DNA from: Escherichia phage vB_Eco_F31
Direction: 5' to 3' (one strand)
Sequence record: OP870147.1
DNA: 64,000 bases
Shown: piece after piece, positions 2,527-62,777 of the stretch
How the letters are laid out: each line of letters opens with the position of its first letter
Numbering within the stretch: the first letter of the stretch is position 1
Notes under the pieces: model-generated
What the model was told of the DNA's origin: nothing
Database searches by the model: none
What the model saw: the letters and a program-made list of their open reading frames with translations, nothing else
Position numbers and translations under genes: made by a program

Positions 2527-3627
2527 TTACGCTGTGAAGATTTTATCCCACATCGCAACAACTGCATCTCGATTATACTTCTTCCATACTGCTTCAGCAC
2601 GTTTAACTCGAGCTTCGTATGTGTCAGTGAATTCTAATACAGCTTTTGTGTAAAGCGCAACTACTTCTTTCTTAGGAGTAGAGGAATCAATTTCTACACG
2701 CACAGTATCTGGGTCGTATTCGAATGTCGCATGAGGATAATCCTTAAAAACTAACTGGATTACAGGGACACCTTTAGAGATGGCTTCAATAGAACTATTC
2801 TCTACCGTACCTGTGTCAGGACACGTATTAATAAGTGCTTTAGCTGTTTTAAGACATTCCATAATTTCACTGTGTGGAGCATCAATAATAACAGGATATT
2901 TAGCTGGTGGTGCCCATTTGCTTGGACAATAACCAATACCATTTTCGCCTAGTGCTTTAATCGCTTCAAGAGCAACATCAGTACGACGCATTTTAGTGTC
3001 ATAACGTTGTGCACTAATAATCAGATCAGTCGCCGGAAGAACTTCAGGTTTCTCATTCAAACAAATAACCGGATAATCTTCGGCTTCAAACAACGGATTT
3101 GCTCGCCAATAATCATAATCGATTTTGTCAGTCAGACCTGAAGTCATATAACAATATTTGCGTTCAAATTCACGGAAGGCTTTAGTAGGAGCATAACTCT
3201 TACCGCCATTCTTATGAATTTGAATAGTTTGGTCCCAAATTTGAACAATACCACGAGATACCGGTTCAAATGGTGTTGCCATAAAATTCTTGTGAACTTT
3301 AGAGAGACCTGCGTCTTTAATTGCCTGAACGGTTAGTTTAGTCGGTTCCATAGTAACAACAAAATCATATTCATGGATGCCGGCTAGTTCAACAATCTTA
3401 CGAGCCATAGTATAACTCATACCTAGACTGAATTTAGTCAGATGACCAACAGGATGATGATTAACTTTCCAATCACCAAATGTGTCATTATCAAAACCGA
3501 TATAATCAATATCGGCACCAATAGAAACTAAATATTTCAACACATTTAAATGTACTGCTTCAAGACCACCTTGTACACGTTCAGGATTAAATGGGACTGC
3601 ACGAGATGGGATAAACATAACTTTCAT
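2527..3627 (-). CDS. GT-B fold glycosyltransferase, candidate hmC pentosyl(arabinosyl)transferase
   Basis: 366-aa ORF; N-terminal MKVMFIPS...GGLE and C-terminal G-x-VENSSIEAISKGVPVI resemble the GT1/GT4 E-x7-E donor-binding region; lies between rIIA and topoisomerase where T4 has no such gene. Confidence 0.55.
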   Translation of the reverse strand: MKVMFIPSRAVPFNPERVQGGLEAVHLNVLKYLVSIGADIDYIGFDNDTFGDWKVNHHPVGHLTKFSLGMSYTMARKIVELAGIHEYDFVVTMEPTKLTVQAIKDAGLSKVHKNFMATPFEPVSRGIVQIWDQTIQIHKNGGKSYAPTKAFREFERKYCYMTSGLTDKIDYDYWRANPLFEAEDYPVICLNEKPEVLPATDLIISAQRYDTKMRRTDVALEAIKALGENGIGYCPSKWAPPAKYPVIIDAPHSEIMECLKTAKALINTCPDTGTVENSSIEAISKGVPVIQLVFKDYPHATFEYDPDTVRVEIDSSTPKKEVVALYTKAVLEFTDTYEARVKRAEAVWKKYNRDAVVAMWDKIFTA

Positions 3628-3640
3628 AATTAAGCCTTAT

Positions 3641-3671
3641 TAAAATTAAAATGAAGCTCCCGAAGGAGCTT
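3641..3671 (-). terminator. hairpin terminator with UUCG loop downstream of gene 39
   Basis: AAGCTCC-TTCG-GGAGCTT on the minus strand followed by T-rich tract; overlaps the gene 39 stop. Confidence 0.5.
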
Positions 3672-5487
3672 AGGACATCCATTCTTTACGAAGTTCTGAA
3701 TCATCACCCATCAACATTTCAAAGAGTTCTTTCCAATTTTCAGGAAGTTTAACTACGTCGTACACAGGGTTCTGAATCATTTCACGATATTCTGACTTTT
3801 CAAGGGAGCCTAATCCCTTGATGTATCGAATACTATGCTTAGGCAGTGTATCTTTAACTTCTTCATACTCAGCTACAGTATAAAACCATTTTTGAGTTTT
3901 GCCAATTTGTGCAATAATTACAGGCGTTTTAACAAAGCGAATACGTCCTTGTTCAAACAATTCAGGCCAATTACTAAAGAAAGCAAGCAAAGCCGGATAG
4001 ATACTTCCAAGACCGTCATGATCGGCATCGGTCATAATTGCAATATTACGATAGTTCGTATTCTCTGCCTTTTCACCAAGAATAAGACCTGTGATAGCAC
4101 AGATATCAAAGAGCTCTTTGTTCTTCATCATATCAGCATATGACATACCCCAGCTATTCATCACCTTACCACGTAATGGGAATCCGCCGTGTAGTTCACG
4201 GTCACGAACATCAATGAGATAACCAATTGCCGAATCACCTTCTGTTAAGAACAATGTCGTATCTGCATCTTTACCACATTGGTTAGCTTTAATATGCTTA
4301 TGAACCTTAGCTTTAGTTGCCTTTTTAGCTGCTTTAGTTTCTGCAGCCTTTTCTGCTGCCAATTTACGAGCTAATGCTGCTTCAACAATAGGCATAATCA
4401 AGGCTTCGTTTTTAAGAAGTGCCTGAGCAATTTTCTTAGCATCCAATTGGATATGATTACGAATATCACCATACGTTGACGTTAAACGTTCTTTAGTCTG
4501 AGAATCAAAACGCATGTTGCTCATGTCTCTAATAAACATCAACATTGTGAGACATTCTTTAACACGAGCTTTAGTGACTTCAATACCCTTATATTTCTTT
4601 TTAATACCCGGCAAAAGATGTTCGCAGATATCATCCATTACACATTCAACATGATGACCACCATTTTTAGTATGGATATTATTCACATAAGTTAAATGAC
4701 GGAAGCCATCTGGTGATGTTGTGAATGCTATAGAGACTTTATCATTTTCTTGAATGATGTTATCTTCACCAAATTGTTTAGCAAATCGTTTAAAATTACC
4801 ATCAACCTTTTTACCATTAAATGTGAACTTGATATCAGGATAAACGACTGCCAATGTTTGAAGTCTGTCTAAAGTAATATCTAAATAAATTTGAGATAAA
4901 TTATGCTCTTCAAATGAAGAGAAATCAGGAGTGAAGATTACTTTAGTGCCTTTACCTTTAGATTTCTTAGAAGACCATGATTTGTTTTCCATTCCGTTTG
5001 AACAGTTAACAGTGATTTCATTTTCGCCATCTGACGTTATGCCTGTAAACAACGTAGAGAAGATATTAGTTAAACTACTCCCGACGCCGTTCATACCACC
5101 AGTCTTGCGTTCAGAGTCATCACCAAAGTTACCACCGGCCTTTGGAATAGTCCAGGCTGCTACAGGCCCAGGAATTTGTTCACCCGTTTGGTCGGTAACT
5201 AAACCTTGAGGAATACCACGTCCGTTATCTTCCACCGAAACTTGATTATTTTTAATTTGCACATCAATTTTATTTGCAAACTTAAATGATGTACGAATAG
5301 CTTCATCAACCGAGTTGTCAATAATCTCATCGATTAATTTAACCAGACCAGGAACATATTCAACTTGTTGATATTTACCAAACAAAAAACGCTCATGTGC
5401 TTCTTTAGCAGAAGAACCAATATACATACCACTACGTTTCTTAATATGTTCTACATCTGACAATACCTTAATTTCATTTTTAATCAT
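3670..5487 (-). CDS. 39: DNA topoisomerase II large subunit (GyrB-like ATPase + Toprim), single uninterrupted ORF
   Basis: 605-aa ORF with GHKL ATPase and Toprim-like motifs (GGxxGxG-like NGVGSS, DADxDG = TDADHDG); equals T4 gp39+gp60 fused as in several T4 relatives. Confidence 0.85.
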   Translation of the reverse strand: MIKNEIKVLSDVEHIKKRSGMYIGSSAKEAHERFLFGKYQQVEYVPGLVKLIDEIIDNSVDEAIRTSFKFANKIDVQIKNNQVSVEDNGRGIPQGLVTDQTGEQIPGPVAAWTIPKAGGNFGDDSERKTGGMNGVGSSLTNIFSTLFTGITSDGENEITVNCSNGMENKSWSSKKSKGKGTKVIFTPDFSSFEEHNLSQIYLDITLDRLQTLAVVYPDIKFTFNGKKVDGNFKRFAKQFGEDNIIQENDKVSIAFTTSPDGFRHLTYVNNIHTKNGGHHVECVMDDICEHLLPGIKKKYKGIEVTKARVKECLTMLMFIRDMSNMRFDSQTKERLTSTYGDIRNHIQLDAKKIAQALLKNEALIMPIVEAALARKLAAEKAAETKAAKKATKAKVHKHIKANQCGKDADTTLFLTEGDSAIGYLIDVRDRELHGGFPLRGKVMNSWGMSYADMMKNKELFDICAITGLILGEKAENTNYRNIAIMTDADHDGLGSIYPALLAFFSNWPELFEQGRIRFVKTPVIIAQIGKTQKWFYTVAEYEEVKDTLPKHSIRYIKGLGSLEKSEYREMIQNPVYDVVKLPENWKELFEMLMGDDSELRKEWMS

Positions 5488-17851: not shown

Positions 17852-18511
17852 TTAACCTCGATTCATAAATGCATTAAATATTTGGTCATCAACAGAAATT
17901 TCTAATTCGACTTCAATTGCTTCAGCCTTTTCTTCAGGTGGTAATTCGTATCCACACACTACAATTTTTTCATCGATATCAAAATATACAGAAGCAATAC
18001 GATTAATGTTATTTTCAGTTAAGTCTAAATCAACATCAACATCTTTTTGACCTACACTTAAAGGATAACTAATACGGGTTATTTTATTATCTTTAACAAA
18101 GAGTCCACCAACATACTCTGTACTACGTTTGAAGTTTACACGTTTCCGAAATGAAAGATATGATGCATCTTTACCATGAGCTCGGCTCATAGGACATAAT
18201 GAATAGCTAGAATAAGAGATGTCAAATCCTACACCTTCAATATGAGCCAACGTGTCATGATTAAACCAATTATAATCATACGCCAAATCCATTATATTGT
18301 AATATGTGAAAGGCACAGGATTAACATCATATGTTGTACCTTTAAAATCTGCCCAGGCAACGATTTCGTTATCTTTAACAATTACAAAAATTACACCAAT
18401 ATGGTATCCGTTATTATTTTCATTCGGCGTTATATTATAACATTGTGCATTAGGAAATTTACCATATTTAAATGGTGCGTTTTTGTGCATATAATAAATC
18501 ATATTATTCAC
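17852..18511 (-). CDS. hypothetical protein (61.2 position)
   Basis: 219-aa ORF. Confidence 0.5.
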   Translation of the reverse strand: MNNMIYYMHKNAPFKYGKFPNAQCYNITPNENNNGYHIGVIFVIVKDNEIVAWADFKGTTYDVNPVPFTYYNIMDLAYDYNWFNHDTLAHIEGVGFDISYSSYSLCPMSRAHGKDASYLSFRKRVNFKRSTEYVGGLFVKDNKITRISYPLSVGQKDVDVDLDLTENNINRIASVYFDIDEKIVVCGYELPPEEKAEAIEVELEISVDDQIFNAFMNRG

Positions 18512-18797
18512 CTGTGATTTCGGTTACGATATCTTTGTTATCGAAATTAGGGTCACAATACAAAACATAGTTGTACTGCATGATACCGCCAGACTTAAGT
18601 TGTTCAACAACTTTATTAACCATATTAGGACGGTCTCGTTTAGTGATGTTCATAATATCAGAGAAGATTTGTTGTTCAACATCTTCTTGATTTGCAGTCA
18701 TTGACCACTCACAGAGGTCTTTATCATAACCTGCCGTAACTGGAGCCGGTGCACATGATACTGCAAGTAAGATTGCTGCCAATGATAACTTTTTCAT
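18504..18797 (-). CDS. sp: periplasmic protein with signal peptide, Sp (spackle)-like
   Basis: 97 aa; N-terminal signal peptide (MKKLSLAAILLAVSCAPA); size and position match T4 sp. Confidence 0.5.
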   Translation of the reverse strand: MKKLSLAAILLAVSCAPAPVTAGYDKDLCEWSMTANQEDVEQQIFSDIMNITKRDRPNMVNKVVEQLKSGGIMQYNYVLYCDPNFDNKDIVTEITGE

Positions 18798-19170: not shown

Positions 19171-19539
19171 TTAATTAAATTTGTTTAAACGTTCAATACA
19201 CTGGACGTAGTTATTCGCGATTTGTTTCTGGGTAGGCTCTTTACCAGTTGTTTCAACATAGCGAATGAATGCAATTTCAGTAGCCTGTAGACAATGTTCT
19301 TTAACGCGTTGTTCTTTTGACAATGCTACAGTATCAGAATCACGATAACGTTGAGCATGAGCATCAGCTTGAATCATTCGATTACCTACAGTAACCGGGT
19401 CTTCCACTTCAACTTTAGGTTGGTCGTACTGTTTAACATTCGGATTGTAAATCAGTTGGCCAACGTTATTAGGGATAAAGCCATGGGCACCACATCCGGT
19501 TAATCCAAATACCATTGCTAAAGCGATTAATTTTTTCAT
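19171..19539 (-). CDS. putative lipoprotein
   Basis: 122 aa; signal peptide with lipobox LTGC; no T4 counterpart that I recall. Confidence 0.5.
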   Translation of the reverse strand: MKKLIALAMVFGLTGCGAHGFIPNNVGQLIYNPNVKQYDQPKVEVEDPVTVGNRMIQADAHAQRYRDSDTVALSKEQRVKEHCLQATEIAFIRYVETTGKEPTQKQIANNYVQCIERLNKFN

Positions 19540-54966: not shown

Positions 54967-55233
54967 TTACTTATCGCACTTAGCAACATAATTAGGCATA
55001 TCACAGAATACAGAGCGAGTAACTACTCGTCCCTTTGACCATGCTTCAGTTGCTTGTCCGGCCGTGCTATTAATATAGCTTGATTTGATATTCTCAATAC
55101 CCTGAGAATGCGATGCATTTACCGAACCGTTGGAAGGTGCAGAAGACTGGTTACCACCAGCTCCTGCACCTGTGGTAGCACCAACAGAGAATGCCATCAT
55201 TACTGCGAATAAACCAATTACTAATTTTTTCAT
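54967..55233 (-). CDS. small secreted protein
   Basis: 88 aa; signal peptide; Gly/Ser/Asn-rich. Confidence 0.45.
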   Translation of the reverse strand: MKKLVIGLFAVMMAFSVGATTGAGAGGNQSSAPSNGSVNASHSQGIENIKSSYINSTAGQATEAWSKGRVVTRSVFCDMPNYVAKCDK

Positions 55234-58634: not shown

Positions 58635-58661
58635 ATATACCTCTTGGTTAGATATTAGTAT

Positions 58662-59243
58662 TTATAACAACCCTGTCAAATCGTTCCAATGCTTCCGGCA
58701 TAATGACACATATCTATCGGTATCACCAATTTCAATTTGACTGCCATCTGTAATTGGAAGTCCGTCTTCCGTGACTCTAGCTACCATTGTGGCCTTTTTA
58801 CCACAATGACAGACACCTTTAAGTTCAACAAGCTTATCGGCAATAGCCATTAATGCTTGAGAACCTTCAAATAGATTACCTTTAAAATCTGTTCGTAGTC
58901 CATATGCCATTACCGGCACATTGTATACGTCAACAATACGACTAAGTTGATACACCTTTTCAGTAGTTAAGAACTGAGCTTCATCAACAAATACACAGTG
59001 AATATCCTTTTGTGCTGCAGCCCATTTATAGAATTCAAAGATATCCATGTCTTTTGTAATTATATTGGCGTCCTGTCGAATACCAATACGAGAGACTATT
59101 TCACCTTTTGAATCGCGAGTATCAATAGCCGGTTTAAGAACTAATACACCCATGCCACGTTCTTTATAGTTATGTGCGGCAGTAAGTAATGAAGCAGACT
59201 TACCAGCGTTCATAGCGGCATAGGTAAAAATTAAACTAGCCAT
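58662..59243 (-). CDS. tk: thymidine kinase
   Basis: 193 aa; Walker A AAMNAGKS; C-terminal zinc-site cysteines (CHCGKKA...CRKH); T4 tk is 193 aa. Confidence 0.85.
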   Translation of the reverse strand: MASLIFTYAAMNAGKSASLLTAAHNYKERGMGVLVLKPAIDTRDSKGEIVSRIGIRQDANIITKDMDIFEFYKWAAAQKDIHCVFVDEAQFLTTEKVYQLSRIVDVYNVPVMAYGLRTDFKGNLFEGSQALMAIADKLVELKGVCHCGKKATMVARVTEDGLPITDGSQIEIGDTDRYVSLCRKHWNDLTGLL

Positions 59244-59862: not shown

Positions 59863-60341
59863 TCAACAATCACAATTTCTAGTTTAGTAGAATACGTATC
59901 TAAAATCTCTTCGATGACATCCCAGTTTCCACCACCAATACCTGCACCAATTCTTGGCATATAAATTACAGGCTTTATTATCTTATTCTTTCCGAATTCA
60001 TTTAATTCTATTATACAATTCATTAAAGCAGAGTACTCAAAATTAGGTCCCGGCTCAAACTGTGTATAAAGATTAAAGCAATAAGCTTTATGGGTCTTAA
60101 AATATTTTTCATAAACCGAATAAGTCCCGAGTTTAGACTTGTCTCCGAATTCGGTTTGAAGTTTATCGGCTTCTAAAATTTTTGGATAAGCCTTTGCTAA
60201 TTGGCCTGCTACACCGGCGCCCATTGTATGAAAACAATTACACCCATGAGCAATATTATTACCTTTAGAAAACAGGGCGACAATATCGCCCTTGATATAG
60301 TTTTTAATCACTTGCTGCAAGTCCTCTATTATAAGAGTCAA
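59844..60341 (-). CDS. macro-domain protein (ADP-ribose binding/hydrolase fold)
   Basis: 165 aa; GNNIAHGCNCFHTMGAGVAGQL and IGAGIGGG match macro-domain signature regions. Confidence 0.55.
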   Translation of the reverse strand: MTLIIEDLQQVIKNYIKGDIVALFSKGNNIAHGCNCFHTMGAGVAGQLAKAYPKILEADKLQTEFGDKSKLGTYSVYEKYFKTHKAYCFNLYTQFEPGPNFEYSALMNCIIELNEFGKNKIIKPVIYMPRIGAGIGGGNWDVIEEILDTYSTKLEIVIVDWEPLL

Positions 60342-60651
60342 CTAGACGGTCTACCATAGAATTGCATGCTGCCTTATCTTTAGGTTCCGCCACCGAGCAT
60401 TCTAATATTTGCCATTTTTTATAGTATCTTTTAATTAAGGTAGACGCCTTGAACCTACTAGACGCCCCATCTTTTTCTCCGTCTTTATACGCATATAACA
60501 ATTTTTGTGAAAAATCTACTTTACACTCTTGACTTTTACCACAGTAATCAGACGCCGTTCTGTTTGTATACTCCGTTACATCAGTATATGTAGTATTAGC
60601 AAGAGCGTTAAATGAAACCAAGCTAACTATTAAAGCCAACATTTTGGTCAT
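60304..60651 (-). CDS. small secreted protein
   Basis: 115 aa with signal peptide; several Cys. Confidence 0.45.
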   Translation of the reverse strand: MTKMLALIVSLVSFNALANTTYTDVTEYTNRTASDYCGKSQECKVDFSQKLLYAYKDGEKDGASSRFKASTLIKRYYKKWQILECSVAEPKDKAACNSMVDRLVDSYNRGLAASD

Positions 60652-61190
60652 TCTTTTATTTCCAGTAGTTTATTTGATTTAAGGTAATTAGCCTTTTCTA
60701 GGACTTCAGAAGCATATTTACTTCCAGCACTTGTCTTCCATCCCGCATTATATGAGGATATAGCTTTTCTTATATCCCCGTTATGTATATTTAACCAATA
60801 AGAAAATTCGATATAAGCCCATCTGGCTGAATTAGACCGCTTAGATAGCATTTTCTTAATTTGGGCATCAGTCATATTATAACCAAGCTGGTTAATTCTT
60901 GCCCTCATTGTTGGTAGATAATTTTGGAACATTCCATACGCATGGTGACCTTTCTTATCTTTAAGATTAATACCGGCAGATGATTCCTGCCATAGTATTG
61001 CGGCCATTATGTATCCAAGTCCTTTCTTATGCATATTTTCATGCGTTTTAAATTTTCCGTCCTTAGAAAACTGTTCCCCAAACTGATAAGCATAATTCAA
61101 GTTATCGAGTTGGACATTACTAAAAGTATGCTCGGAGCTATGTGCTGATAACGAAAGAGCAAATAGACCAGCGAGTAGTGCTTTTCTCAT
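60648..61190 (-). CDS. secreted lytic transglycosylase (SLT domain)
   Basis: 180 aa; signal peptide; SLT motifs ILWQESSAG, AYGMFQ, YNAG. Confidence 0.6.
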   Translation of the reverse strand: MRKALLAGLFALSLSAHSSEHTFSNVQLDNLNYAYQFGEQFSKDGKFKTHENMHKKGLGYIMAAILWQESSAGINLKDKKGHHAYGMFQNYLPTMRARINQLGYNMTDAQIKKMLSKRSNSARWAYIEFSYWLNIHNGDIRKAISSYNAGWKTSAGSKYASEVLEKANYLKSNKLLEIKE

Positions 61191-61198
61191 GTTTACCT

Positions 61199-61657
61199 CT
61201 AGATTTTAATCACTGCTTTAGAAGCTTTTCCTGGTAGTCGTTTACTGTTAATAATAGCCATTCTACATTGAAGAGTCTTCATTTTGAATGCCGGATTTTC
61301 GCGACAAACTGTAAGTCCTAACCAAAGATTTCCGTCAGTTATTTCTAAACGGCCTGGACGATACTCGACACCTTCGACAAAATCTTCATCAACATCTGGA
61401 CGTGCCGGCATTGATAAAAATTCTGCAACTTCTTTAACGTGATTTTTTACTTTATGAAATAATTCAAAAACGTAATTCTCATCTATTTCTCTCTGGATGG
61501 CACGATCTAAGAGATGTTGAGAATACTTGATATGAAAGCCTGGTAGTCCAAGAGACTTTGCAGCATCTTTTATACCGGCATTTATTTTGCGGAACTCCGT
61601 TTCAAAGATTCGACGGAGTTTATTACGGCGGATAAAAACTTCCGAATTGATAGTCAT
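61199..61657 (-). CDS. regB: RegB site-specific endoribonuclease
   Basis: 152 aa; MTINSEVFIRRNKLRR...QCRMAIINSKRLPGKASKAVIKI near-colinear with T4 RegB as recalled. Confidence 0.85.
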   Translation of the reverse strand: MTINSEVFIRRNKLRRIFETEFRKINAGIKDAAKSLGLPGFHIKYSQHLLDRAIQREIDENYVFELFHKVKNHVKEVAEFLSMPARPDVDEDFVEGVEYRPGRLEITDGNLWLGLTVCRENPAFKMKTLQCRMAIINSKRLPGKASKAVIKI

Positions 61658-61718: not shown

Positions 61719-61934
61719 TTATTGATAAAATGGAGTTAAAGCCCAAGATTCTTTAGATACCATATTGGCGAAATGCCTCATCTCTTCGATTTGGCGACGA
61801 CGCTGGTCAGCATAGTCTTCTTCGCCTTCTTCCTTACAATCTTCAAGGTCTTCTTCAAGATACTTTAAGTATTCACTACAAATTTTGTTGACCTTTTCTT
61901 GAAAGTCCAATAACCCAGTAATAGTAGAAGCCAT
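61719..61934 (-). CDS. small acidic hypothetical protein
   Basis: 71-aa ORF. Confidence 0.4.
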   Translation of the reverse strand: MASTITGLLDFQEKVNKICSEYLKYLEEDLEDCKEEGEEDYADQRRRQIEEMRHFANMVSKESWALTPFYQ

Positions 61935-62200
61935 TAGTATTTTTCCTCAGGTCGAAATACTGCACGACATGCCCACATGCTGGCTTCTTTTAGATGTTGC
62001 TTAGCATACTTAAGAGCCTGTACTGCATCCATATCTTCTTTGGTTTGTTGCTCTGTTTCATTTTCTTTCAAGATATATGCTTCTTCAATCAGAGCATCAA
62101 ACAACAATCCAAGACGGACTTCTGCATCTTTAATAGCGTTCACTTTACCGATTTTATCGTCGGTATGTGGCTTGTAGCCTTTGATGTCTTCAATCGACAT
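61934..62200 (-). CDS. hypothetical protein
   Basis: 88 aa from MSIEDIKGYK with GAGGAAA RBS. Confidence 0.4.
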   Translation of the reverse strand: MSIEDIKGYKPHTDDKIGKVNAIKDAEVRLGLLFDALIEEAYILKENETEQQTKEDMDAVQALKYAKQHLKEASMWACRAVFRPEEKY

Positions 62201-62414
62201 AAGGAATTTCCTCATCGGTGGCAAGGTCATATTCGACCAATTGGATAGGCTCATTAATACCATATCCACGTACAGTGATATCAGTTGTCGGATAGTTTCC
62301 AGTAATATCACCCATTCTAAATGCTTCAGTGAATGATTGCTCGCCTGAGCAACTAAACCAGGCGGCAAAACATTTTAAAACACCTTCAGACCCTTCTATA
62401 ATCAATTTAGCCAT
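62190..62414 (-). CDS. small hypothetical protein
   Basis: 74-aa ORF, TAATG-coupled to the grcA-like ORF. Confidence 0.4.
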   Translation of the reverse strand: MAKLIIEGSEGVLKCFAAWFSCSGEQSFTEAFRMGDITGNYPTTDITVRGYGINEPIQLVEYDLATDEEIPYVD

Positions 62415-62641
62415 TATAGACTCTCAGTAAAGGTACGAGCGATAACGTCGCGCTGCTGTTCCGGAGTCAGAGAGTTAAAGCGAACTGCATAACCGGATAC
62501 ACGGATGGTCAACTGCGGATATTTTTCTGGATGCTTAACTGCATCTTCCAGAGTTTCACGACGCAGAACATTAACGTTCAGGTGTTGACCACCTTCAATT
62601 TTAACTTTAGGGTTGATGTTCAATTTCAATTTCACGGGCAT
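62414..62641 (-). CDS. grcA: GrcA/YfiD-like autonomous glycyl-radical cofactor, C-terminal domain only
   Basis: 75 aa; glycyl-radical motif RVSGYAVRF; residues from [11 protein letters not shown] to the C-terminus match enterobacterial GrcA as I recall it; higher GC and host-like codons. Confidence 0.6.
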
Positions 62642-62777
62642 TCAAACCGTAGAAAATTTCCGGGTCTACAATAGCGTCTTCTTTAAAAGTCTTAGAGACA
62701 ATAATCCGGGCTTGAGTACCGTCTTCAAAATAAATAGTGCCTTTGTGTGTGCCTTCAAGAATTTGATATGCTTTCAT
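62607..62777 (-). CDS. GrcA-like N-terminal fragment (different frame from the C-terminal domain)
   Basis: 56-aa ORF by manual translation; [18 protein letters not shown] resembles GrcA GEARCIVAKAGYAEDEVV; overlaps the C-domain ORF by 35 nt. Confidence 0.4.

What the first reader, a model, noticed from the sequence alone, without database searches (positions are those of the whole stretch)
60304..61190. Secreted SLT-domain lytic transglycosylase plus a secreted Cys-containing partner among early genes
ORF 60648-61190 has a signal peptide and the SLT catalytic motifs (ESSAG, AYGMFQ, YNAG). The adjacent 115-aa ORF also has a signal peptide. A periplasmic murein-cleaving enzyme expressed with early genes is separate from the virion lysozyme and endolysin and might remodel the wall during infection or exclusion.
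Basis: partly seen in the sequence, partly recalled or inferred. Interest (0 to 1): 0.35.

Follow-up and report, generated by a model that had tools for sequence, protein, structure and literature searches.

The report
T4 vs.1–vs exported gene pair
These are the well-conserved T4 genes vs.1, a likely secreted cell-wall-cutting enzyme already noted in the literature, and vs; the one surprise is that vs, always labelled a modifier of a cytoplasmic tRNA synthetase, looks like a secreted, disulfide-bonded protein.

Summary
The window is a T4-like Mosigvirus. ORF 60648-61190(-) is the orthologue of T4 vs.1 (83% identity). ORF 60304-60651(-) is the orthologue of T4 vs, the "valyl-tRNA synthetase modifier" (67%).

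Vs.1 has a Sec-type signal peptide and a high-confidence lysozyme-like GH23/SLT fold. It has an invariant Glu69 that aligns with the catalytic Glu of MltE and of goose-type lysozyme, plus the G-x-x-Q and Y-N-A-G motifs. Its SLT similarity was already published (Nolan 2006, citing the T4 genome review), so the core finding is already known. No enzymatic or physiological role has been shown.

What I add concerns Vs. In 67 of 74 loci carrying vs.1, a Vs homologue is present. In 59 of them it starts within -8 to +7 nt of the vs.1 stop. All 57 distinct full-length Vs proteins keep a signal peptide and exactly four mature cysteines, and four carry a lipoprotein lipobox. Vs is predicted as a four-helix bundle with no known structural relatives. 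This points to an extracytoplasmic protein, which conflicts with its classical label as a binder of cytoplasmic ValRS.

Published transposon data show that vs and vs.1 mutants are both under-represented, especially in minimal medium. The mechanism remains inferred.

The parts
60648..61190 (-). vs.1 CDS, 180 aa. It encodes a predicted exported single-domain SLT/GH23-fold lytic transglycosylase-like protein; the mature form is about 18.7 kDa with pI about 9.6.
   Evidence: ORF. 83% identical to T4 Vs.1. PHROG 600 at E=3.7e-67. Pfam SLT at E=1.3e-3, 18.8 bits, below the 21.3-bit gathering score. 42 of 46 family members hit SLT, best 1.3e-7. AF2 pLDDT 90.8. Foldseek PDB top hits are GH23 chitinase, MltD, Slt and Slt70, the phi6 lysin and T7 core proteins.
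61137..61190 (-). Predicted Sec signal peptide of Vs.1, residues 1-18 (MRKALLAGLFALSLSAHS|SE).
   Evidence: An equivalent n/h/c segment is present in all 32 aligned homologues even though the sequence itself varies. The cleavage site is inferred.
60972..60989 (-). Motif I, Q-E-S-S-A-G (residues 68-73), containing the putative catalytic Glu69 (codon 60984-60986).
   Evidence: E69 and S71 are invariant. E69 aligns with Glu64 of E. coli MltE and with the E of the ESRAG motif in goose-type lysozyme 3gxk. That these are the catalytic residues comes from my own knowledge.
60924..60941 (-). Motif II, A-Y-G-M-F-Q (residues 84-89), the counterpart of the GLMQ motif of family-1 lytic transglycosylases.
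   Evidence: G86, Q89 and N90 are invariant. The motif aligns with AIGLMQ of MltE.
60741..60752 (-). Motif III, Y-N-A-G (residues 147-150).
   Evidence: Y147, N148 and G150 are invariant. The motif aligns with AAYNAG of Slt70 and AAYNTG of goose-type lysozyme.
61196..61199 (-). GAGG Shine-Dalgarno sequence for vs.1. It overlaps the regB stop codon (61199-61201).
   Evidence: Upstream sequence ...TCTAGAGGTAAACATG; regB ORF coordinates.
60304..60651 (-). vs CDS, 115 aa, annotated 'valyl-tRNA synthetase modifier'. It is predicted here to be an exported four-helix protein of about 11.0 kDa (mature) with two disulfides.
   Evidence: 67% identical to T4 Vs. PHROG 1256 at E=3.3e-35. Precomputed Pfam PF26829. 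AF2 pLDDT 84.8 with helices 15-37, 41-64, 69-85 and 90-114. No PDB fold relative; in BFVD only its own family is found.
60598..60651 (-). Predicted Sec signal peptide of Vs, residues 1-18 (MTKMLALIVSLVSFNALA|NT, with A-L-A at positions -3 to -1).
   Evidence: A signal-peptide-like N-terminus is kept in all 57 distinct full-length homologues, and 4 of them have a lipobox (ALSGC) instead.
60364..60543 (-). Span holding the four invariant cysteines of Vs: C37 (60541-60543), C43 (60523-60525), C85 (60397-60399) and C96 (60364-60366). They sit at the helix1/helix2 and helix3/helix4 turns.
   Evidence: C37, C43, G58, C85, C96 and G110 are the only invariant columns in 26 diverse homologues. There are exactly 4 mature Cys in 57 of 57. 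The disulfide pairing is inferred.
60648..60651 (-). ATGA overlap of the vs.1 stop and the vs start, consistent with translational coupling.
   Evidence: In 59 of 74 homologous loci the gap between the two genes is -8 to +7 nt.
60309..60311 (-). Probable GTG start of tk.4 (Macro domain; AdfM). It lies upstream of the vs stop codon, so the two ORFs overlap by 8 nt and the three genes form one tightly packed unit.
   Evidence: Alignment to T4 Tk.4 Met1; sequence.

Best explanation
The two ORFs are the vs.1 and vs genes of a T4-like phage. They are transcribed with regB and tk.4 in the early region and are translationally coupled.

Vs.1 is made with a cleavable Sec signal peptide and released into the periplasm. 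There it is a small, basic, single-domain enzyme of the SLT / GH23 lysozyme-like fold. It uses Glu69 as the single acid/base catalyst to cleave the MurNAc-GlcNAc bonds of host peptidoglycan, most likely as a lytic transglycosylase.

Vs is exported alongside it, as a soluble periplasmic protein in most phages and as a lipoprotein in some. It folds into a four-helix bundle stapled by two disulfides. I propose that Vs works in the cell envelope in the same pathway as Vs.1, as an accessory or targeting factor rather than a simple inhibitor. Together they would give a modest fitness gain that becomes important on slow-growing hosts in minimal medium.

Shown here: orthology, fold, motif conservation, signal-peptide and cysteine conservation, and gene coupling.

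Inferred: actual export, enzymatic activity, the disulfides, any Vs-Vs.1 contact, and the physiological role.
For: Identity:
- The window is 99.5% identical to Mosigvirus NBG1.
- Vs.1 is 83% and Vs 67% identical to the T4 proteins.
- The gene order regB-vs.1-vs-tk.4 is the same as in T4.

Enzyme:
- 42 of 46 family members hit Pfam SLT, best E=1.3e-7.
- The AF2 model has pLDDT 90.8.
- The best PDB matches are all GH23 or lytic transglycosylases, at probability 0.97-1.0 and TM about 0.5.
- E69, S71, G86, Q89, N90, Y147, N148 and G150 are invariant.
- E69 aligns with MltE E64 and with the ESRAG Glu of goose-type lysozyme.

Export:
- Both proteins have canonical n/h/c N-termini.
- The same crude filter picks up the known periplasmic proteins Spackle and rI.
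- All 57 distinct Vs homologues keep a signal sequence and exactly 4 mature Cys, and 4 have a lipobox.
- The Cys and two Gly are the only invariant residues.
- His-tagged T4 Vs is insoluble in the cytoplasm (PMC8076793).

Pairing:
- Vs is present in 67 of 74 vs.1 loci.
- It is directly abutting in 59 of them, with a gap of -8 to +7 nt. These include Acinetobacter and Klebsiella phages.

Phenotype (HIDEN-SEQ preprint, Extended Data Table 6, sheet S8):
- After liquid LB competition, vs and vs.1 insertion counts are 26.6 and 22.6. Neighbouring genes range from 179 to 652.
- In M9 they fall further: vs log2FC -2.19 (padj 0) and vs.1 log2FC -0.87 (p=0.0055, padj 0.155).
- Loss of vs.1 is therefore not beneficial. 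This argues against Vs being merely an antidote to Vs.1.
Against: - The window protein itself is below Pfam's SLT gathering score (18.8 against 21.3 bits). There is no PDB sequence hit, and the Foldseek E-values are only about 1e-2.
- No activity, localisation or interaction data exist for either protein.
- Vs is classically the factor that binds cytoplasmic valyl-tRNA synthetase. A minimal-medium phenotype also fits a translation or amino-acid role.
- The vs.1 transposon phenotype could be polarity on the translationally coupled vs.
- A mirror-tree test gave no specific Vs.1-Vs co-evolution: partial r is 0.24, lower than the 0.61 for Vs.1-RegB.
- Vs falls into divergent types that do not track Vs.1 similarity.
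- Aeromonas-type T4-like phages, Ackermannviridae and the two ~300-kb viral contigs have Vs.1-like genes without Vs, so Vs.1 does not need Vs in every lineage.
Confidence: 0.55

Rival explanations
1. The annotation is right and the adjacency is only operon packing. Under this reading Vs acts in the cytoplasm as the classical tau factor that binds host valyl-tRNA synthetase. It has no functional link to Vs.1, which is an independent periplasmic murein enzyme.
For: Orthology to T4 vs and its long-standing annotation. The vs knockout is impaired specifically in M9 glucose, where amino-acid supply is limiting. The mature size of about 11 kDa is close to the roughly 10-kDa factor reported classically (calculation; the classical size is from my own knowledge). 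There is no specific co-evolution signal with Vs.1. Tight packing is common throughout this region; tk.4 also overlaps vs.
Against: A canonical signal peptide is conserved in 57 of 57 homologues, with lipobox variants in 4. Four invariant cysteines are placed at helix turns. There is no alternative internal start: the only Met residues are M1, M4 and M99. Vs is the fastest-evolving of the four neighbouring proteins (mean p-distance 0.58), which is odd for a binder of a highly conserved synthetase. Vs follows vs.1 directly even in Acinetobacter phages.
Confidence: 0.25
2. Vs is a periplasmic inhibitor or immunity protein for Vs.1, comparable to Spackle acting on the gp5 lysozyme or Ivy/PliG acting on lysozymes. 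It would hold the enzyme in check until lysis or restrict where it acts.
For: The pair is co-exported and translationally coupled with the putative inhibitor gene downstream. T4 already has a small helical periplasmic protein that inhibits a phage muramidase, and Spackle is present in this window (its mechanism is from my own knowledge). The vs mutant is sicker than the vs.1 mutant in M9, as expected if unrestrained Vs.1 is harmful.
Against: vs.1 insertion mutants probably lack both proteins, yet they are as depleted as vs mutants in LB and are not enriched in M9. An antidote model predicts they would be neutral. Vs shows no fold similarity to Spackle or to known lysozyme inhibitors. Vs.1-like genes exist without Vs in several lineages. 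There is no co-evolution signal.
Confidence: 0.12
3. Vs.1 is a non-catalytic peptidoglycan-binding or scaffold protein, or a hydrolytic g-type lysozyme rather than a lytic transglycosylase.
For: The Pfam score is sub-threshold. The top structural hits include a GH23 chitinase and goose-type lysozyme relatives as well as lytic transglycosylases. Motif II reads G-M-F-Q rather than G-L-M-Q.
Against: Strict invariance of the catalytic Glu and all motif residues across hosts from Escherichia to Acinetobacter and Aeromonas argues for retained catalysis. The position two residues after the Q of motif II, where goose lysozyme has its second acidic residue, is Tyr91 in the window protein and Tyr or Leu in most homologues (the role of that Asp is from my own knowledge). 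This favours transglycosylase chemistry.
Confidence: 0.08

Closest known systems
Bacteriophage T4 Vs.1 (NP_049725), PHROG 600
   Same: Orthologue: 83% identity over 178 aa, same length, same position between regB and vs. The marginal SLT similarity of this family was already reported for six T4-like phages (PMC1524935).
   Different: Nothing of substance. This is the Mosigvirus allele. No function has been demonstrated experimentally for any member, as far as the searchable literature shows.
Bacteriophage T4 Vs, 'valyl-tRNA synthetase modifier' (NP_049724), PHROG 1256, Pfam PF26829
   Same: Orthologue: 67% identity, same length and position, same signal-peptide-like N-terminus and the same four Cys.
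   Different: The annotated function needs a cytoplasmic protein, whereas the sequence features of the whole family predict export. I could not reach the primary papers that assigned the vs mutation to this ORF.
Family-1 lytic transglycosylases / GH23 (E. coli Slt70, MltE/EmtA, P. aeruginosa MltD and Slt; goose-type lysozyme)
   Same: Lysozyme-like helical fold. An E-S catalytic motif, a G-x-x-Q motif and a Y-N-x-G motif occur in the same order and align residue for residue. Periplasmic location is predicted.
   Different: Sequence similarity is very weak: Pfam is below the gathering score for this protein, and profile-to-sequence scores against Slt70 and MltE are not significant on their own. 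Vs.1 has a family-specific conserved N-terminal segment, residues about 20-58 (invariant Q27, N30, A34, G38), that lies outside the SLT model. It has no lipid anchor, no superhelical domains and no LysM domains.
Specialised small lytic transglycosylases of secretion and conjugation systems (VirB1, P19 of plasmid R1, IpgF/IagB); comparison from my own knowledge
   Same: Same general layout: a signal peptide plus a single SLT domain of about 150 aa, encoded within an operon for another function.
   Different: Not tested directly. tblastn of Vs.1 against 72,556 plasmids found nothing, so there is no close relationship. No trans-envelope machine is known to be assembled early in T4 infection.
T4 Spackle (gp61.3) with the gp5 tail lysozyme
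   Same: A small, signal-peptide-bearing, helical, Cys-containing periplasmic phage protein that acts on a phage muramidase (mechanism from my own knowledge). A Spackle orthologue is present in this window at 18504-18797.
   Different: No detectable fold or sequence similarity between Vs and Spackle. The transposon data do not fit a pure inhibitor role for Vs.

Membership tests
SLT / GH23 lytic transglycosylase (Pfam PF01464) | Match to the family HMM above the curated gathering score | tested here: not met
   The window protein scores 18.8 bits against a cut-off of 21.3, E=1.3e-3. However, 42 of 46 homologues match at E<=0.01, best 1.3e-7. Many homologues carry a precomputed PF01464 hit.
SLT / GH23 lytic transglycosylase (Pfam PF01464) | Catalytic Glu in the E-S motif at the end of the first core helix | tested here: met
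   E69 and S71 are invariant. E69 aligns with MltE E64 and with the Glu of ESRAG in goose-type lysozyme.
SLT / GH23 lytic transglycosylase (Pfam PF01464) | Downstream G-L-M-Q-type and A-Y-N-x-G motifs | tested here: met
   G86-M-F-Q89 and S146-Y-N-A-G150 are present. G86, Q89, Y147, N148 and G150 are invariant. Both motifs align with the MltE and Slt70 motifs.
SLT / GH23 lytic transglycosylase (Pfam PF01464) | Lysozyme-like all-helical fold | tested here: met
   AF2 pLDDT 90.8, pTM 0.83. Foldseek PDB hits 1-21 are all GH23 chitinase, MltD, Slt or Slt70, phi6 lysin or T7 core proteins, at probability 0.77-1.0 and TMq 0.40-0.52. E-values are only 1e-2 to 0.6.
SLT / GH23 lytic transglycosylase (Pfam PF01464) | Cleaves peptidoglycan with formation of 1,6-anhydro-MurNAc | not testable with these tools
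   Needs an enzyme assay.
Sec-exported (periplasmic) protein, applied to both Vs.1 and Vs | N-terminal positive n-region, hydrophobic h-region of 8-12 residues, small-x-small cleavage site, and no further transmembrane segment | tested here: met
   Hand criteria are met by both proteins. The same filter recovers Spackle and rI and gives one probable false positive among the 7 hits out of 161 ORFs. The feature is conserved in all homologues. SignalP was not available and export has not been shown.
Sec-exported (periplasmic) protein, applied to Vs | Conserved even number of cysteines placed so that they could form disulfides | tested here: met
   Exactly four mature Cys in 57 of 57 homologues. 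They are invariant columns and sit at the helix1/helix2 and helix3/helix4 turns of the model.
T4 Vs valyl-tRNA synthetase modifier (PF26829 / PHROG 1256) | Sequence orthology to T4 vs at the syntenic position | tested here: met
   67% identity. PHROG 1256 at E=3.3e-35. Same position downstream of vs.1.
T4 Vs valyl-tRNA synthetase modifier (PF26829 / PHROG 1256) | Binds host ValRS in the cytoplasm and alters its properties | not testable with these tools
   The sequence features predict the wrong compartment for this. The primary literature linking the ORF to the activity could not be read.

The most novel reading that the evidence does not exclude
The protein annotated in about 800 phage genomes as 'valyl-tRNA synthetase modifier' may in fact be exported. 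Under this reading it is a disulfide-stapled four-helix periplasmic protein, a lipoprotein in some phages, that belongs functionally with the Vs.1 murein transglycosylase. The classical ValRS-modifier label would then be either a mis-assignment of the genetic vs locus to this ORF, or an association that forms only after cells are broken open. The recently reported need for vs in minimal medium would reflect an envelope or peptidoglycan function, not a translation function.
Probability: 0.35. Interest if true: 0.6.

Novelty: already known. Interest (0 to 1): 0.35.

Why it matters
As written, the finding rediscovers two named T4 genes, and the SLT similarity of vs.1 has been in print since 2003-2006. 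Its value is therefore mainly confirmatory.

It still matters in two ways. First, neither protein has a demonstrated biochemical role. A recent transposon screen nevertheless found vs to be the T4 gene most depleted in minimal medium, with vs.1 trending the same way. A concrete, testable envelope hypothesis is therefore timely.

Second, there is a conflict between the label 'modifier of a cytoplasmic tRNA synthetase' and a family-wide signature of export: signal peptide or lipobox, plus four invariant cysteines. This suggests that a decades-old annotation, now copied into hundreds of genomes, needs re-examination. If Vs and Vs.1 act together on the cell wall early in infection, T4 would have a third murein-active system besides the gp5 tail lysozyme and the endolysin.

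Tried and rejected
1. Direct sequence search of PDB with either protein found nothing useful. The Vs.1 profile against PDB gave only weak hits; the top two (metacaspase-9) are spurious, and the goose-lysozyme hit is informative only for motif register.
2. NCBIfam gave no hit for either protein.
3. tblastn of Vs.1 against plasmids, looking for relatives among VirB1/P19-type enzymes, gave no match.
4. The Vs fold gave only generic helical-bundle noise against PDB and only its own family against BFVD. There is no similarity to Spackle or to lysozyme inhibitors.
5. Searches for cellular or distant Vs homologues found only phage PF26829 members. These were an exhaustive profile search of 1.84 billion representatives and a broad 26-sequence profile search of 5.8 billion proteins.
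6. A mirror-tree co-evolution test of Vs.1 against Vs, with RegB and Tk.4 as controls, gave no specific signal. This is treated as inconclusive rather than as evidence against partnership.
7. I rejected 'Vs is a plain antidote to Vs.1' as the leading model, because vs.1 insertions are depleted rather than neutral. Polarity clouds this argument.
8. There is no late-promoter motif near the pair. The simple sigma-70 and terminator scan was at or below chance level.
9. The primary literature on vs (Miller 2003; Muller and Marchin 1975) is not held in the library, so I could not establish how the ORF was assigned.
10. A complex prediction for Vs.1 with Vs was not possible with the tools.
Full report
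**What is there**

The window is a T4-like phage. The 1.9-kb stretch around the finding is 99.5% identical to Escherichia phage vB_EcoM_NBG1, genus Mosigvirus.

On the minus strand the gene order is regB (61199-61657), the 180-aa ORF (60648-61190), the 115-aa ORF (60304-60651), a Macro-domain gene (tk.4), then small ORFs, tk, rI.1 and rI. This is the order regB-vs.1-vs-tk.4...tk-rI.1-rI found in T4.

The 180-aa protein is 83% identical to T4 Vs.1. The 115-aa protein is 67% identical to T4 Vs, the "valyl-tRNA synthetase modifier".

**Vs.1 as an SLT-fold enzyme**

- The window protein alone matches Pfam SLT only marginally: E=1.3e-3, 18.8 bits against a gathering score of 21.3.
- The family evidence is solid. 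Of 46 diverse homologues, 42 match SLT at E<=0.01, best 1.3e-7.
- An AlphaFold2 model built on that alignment has mean pLDDT 90.8.
- Its best PDB matches are all lysozyme-like GH23 proteins or lytic transglycosylases. They are a GH23 chitinase, MltD, P. aeruginosa Slt, E. coli Slt70, the phi6 lysin and T7 core proteins, at probability 0.77-1.0 and TM about 0.5. E-values are only about 1e-2.
- Invariant residues across hosts from Escherichia to Acinetobacter and Aeromonas include E69, S71, G86, Q89, N90, Y147, N148 and G150.
- The family profile places E69 on Glu64 of E. coli MltE and G-M-F-Q on its G-L-M-Q. It places S-Y-N-A-G on A-Y-N-A-G of Slt70, and E69 on the Glu of ESRAG in goose-type lysozyme.
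- Whether the chemistry is transglycosylase or hydrolase cannot be decided here.

**This part is already known**

Nolan et al. [quoted passage not shown] They cite earlier PSI-BLAST results in the T4 genome review (PMC1524935). Several database records already name homologues "transglycosylase SLT domain-containing protein". I found no paper with experimental work on Vs.1.

**Export signals**

- Vs.1 starts MRKALLAGLFALSLSAHS|SE and Vs starts MTKMLALIVSLVSFNALA|NT. Each has a positive n-region, a hydrophobic core of about 10 residues and a small-x-small site.
- A crude filter for this layout flags 7 of 161 ATG-ORFs of at least 60 aa in the window.
- The seven comprise the two ORFs, the experimentally periplasmic Spackle and rI, two small unknowns and one probable false positive.

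**The partner gene is the interesting part**

I collected 70 vs.1-containing loci from IMG/VR and added three GenBank loci and the window. A locally iterated profile then found the following.

- A Vs homologue is present in 67 of 74 loci. In 59 of them its start lies -8 to +7 nt from the vs.1 stop, so the two genes are translationally coupled.
- In an RB43-like group, one or two ORFs are inserted between the two genes.
- Aeromonas-type T4-like phages, Ackermannviridae and the two ~300-kb viral contigs have Vs.1-like genes without Vs.
- All 57 distinct full-length Vs proteins keep a signal-peptide-like N-terminus and exactly four cysteines in the mature part. Four of them carry a lipoprotein lipobox (ALSGC) in place of a signal peptidase I site.
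- In a 26-sequence alignment with identities down to about 20%, the only invariant columns are the four Cys and two Gly.
- The AF2 model (pLDDT 84.8) is a four-helix bundle. C37/C43 lie at the helix 1-2 turn and C85/C96 at the helix 3-4 turn.
- The fold has no relatives in PDB, and in BFVD only its own family. Exhaustive sequence searches find only phage members of PF26829.
- Recombinant N-terminally His-tagged T4 Vs expressed in the cytoplasm went to inclusion bodies (PMC8076793).

Everything in the sequence says "extracytoplasmic, disulfide-bonded". That is hard to square with binding a cytoplasmic aminoacyl-tRNA synthetase. I could not read the papers that tied the genetic vs locus to this ORF.

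**Phenotypic data from the literature**

A 2025 preprint (HIDEN-SEQ, doi 10.1101/2025.11.20.689424) reports that vs is the T4 gene most depleted in M9 glucose relative to LB. It also reports that a vs knockout plaques poorly on M9.

| Gene (Extended Data Table 6, sheet S8) | Mean insertions, LB | Mean insertions, M9 | log2FC | Significance |
|---|---|---|---|---|
| vs | 26.6 | 5.0 | -2.19 | padj 0 |
| vs.1 | 22.6 | 11.9 | -0.87 | p=0.0055, padj 0.155 |
| regB | 178.6 | 403.0 | +1.17 | p=0.0488, padj 0.80 |
| tk.4 | 289.6 | 275.0 | -0.07 | not significant |
| vs.3 | 652.1 | 626.2 | -0.06 | not significant |

- In the reference plate library, vs and vs.1 counts were 103 and 76. Both mutants therefore already lose ground in LB.
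- The two genes behave alike, and loss of vs.1 is not advantageous. This argues against Vs being simply an antidote to a toxic Vs.1.
- Caveat: insertions in vs.1 may be polar on the coupled vs.
- The same preprint identifies tk.4 as AdfM, an anti-DarTG2 macrodomain.

**Mechanism, with its limits**

The best-supported reading is as follows. Vs.1 is exported early in infection and cleaves host murein with Glu69. Vs is co-exported and acts in the same envelope pathway as an accessory or targeting factor. Together they improve phage yield, particularly on slow-growing cells. Only the fold, the motifs, the export signatures and the gene coupling are shown; the rest is inferred.

A mirror-tree test found no Vs.1-Vs co-evolution beyond background: partial r was 0.24, against 0.61 for Vs.1-RegB. 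Vs is the fastest-evolving of the four neighbouring proteins, with mean p-distance 0.58 against 0.31 for Vs.1. It falls into divergent types that do not track Vs.1. This fits a host-interface protein better than a tightly co-adapted enzyme subunit, and fits a binder of a conserved synthetase poorly.

The rivals considered are:
- Vs really is the cytoplasmic ValRS modifier and the adjacency is incidental.
- Vs is a Spackle-like inhibitor of Vs.1.
- Vs.1 is non-catalytic, or is a hydrolase rather than a transglycosylase.

**Verdict**

The core finding, a secreted SLT-like protein among T4 early genes, is already known, so its novelty is low. The unresolved conflict between the annotation of Vs and its predicted compartment, together with the new minimal-medium phenotype, gives a modest and readily testable lead.

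Noticed in passing
window 62414-62777 (-), extra base at about 62610-62612: The vs.6 gene (GrcA-like glycyl-radical cofactor) is split by a 1-nt insertion. The window has a CCC run where NBG1 and T4 have CC. This gives ORFs of 56 and 75 aa instead of one 120-aa ORF. It is either a sequencing error in a homopolymer or a genuine pseudogene.
   Followed up: partly
window 60274-60292 (-) and 60309-60311 (-): tk.4 (Macro domain; AdfM anti-DarTG2 factor according to the HIDEN-SEQ preprint) most likely starts at GTG 60311, so it overlaps the end of vs by 8 nt. A terminator-like hairpin, AGGGCGATATTGTCGCCCT followed by GTTTTC, sits inside its first codons. Phage NBG1 annotates this hairpin as a terminator and starts the gene further downstream.
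   Followed up: partly
window 19171-19539 (-) and 54967-55233 (-): Two more small ORFs of unknown function have export signals. One is 122 aa with a lipobox-like MKKLIALAMVFGLTG|C (PHROG 1754). The other is 88 aa with MKKLVIGLFAVMMAFS| (PHROG 2243). They were found with the crude signal-peptide filter.
   Followed up: no
window 18504-18797 (-): A Spackle (periplasmic superinfection-exclusion, gp5-lysozyme inhibitor) orthologue is present, at PHROG 1586 E=2.9e-42. It served as a positive control for the signal-peptide filter.
   Followed up: yes
window 58659-58666 (-): A T4 late-promoter motif, TATAAATA, lies at the end of tk, just upstream of rI.1 and rI. No such motif occurs near vs.1 or vs.
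   Followed up: no
window 61719-62414 (-), compared with L001 4915-5694: The ORF layout in the vs.3/vs.4/vs.5 region differs from the NBG1 annotation. The window has ORFs of 71 aa, an ORF that runs 144 aa from its first start codon (a TTG), and 74 aa, against 99, 88 and 74 aa in NBG1. This suggests further indels or different start choices.
   Followed up: no
L036, L037, L038, L040, L061 (Vs homologues at about 3549-3875): In one clade of T4-like phages, Vs has a lipoprotein lipobox (MKKLFVLLVV.ALSGC) instead of a signal peptidase I site. This implies membrane anchoring of the same protein family.
   Followed up: partly
L005 2408-3025 (Salmonella phage SeF6a, Ackermannviridae); H59-H62 (Felixounavirus): Vs.1-like secreted SLT proteins (PHROG 600) also occur outside the T4-like phages, in Kuttervirus and Felixounavirus genomes, without a Vs partner. 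The Kuttervirus copy keeps the ES, G-x-x-Q and YNAG motifs and has a signal peptide.
   Followed up: partly
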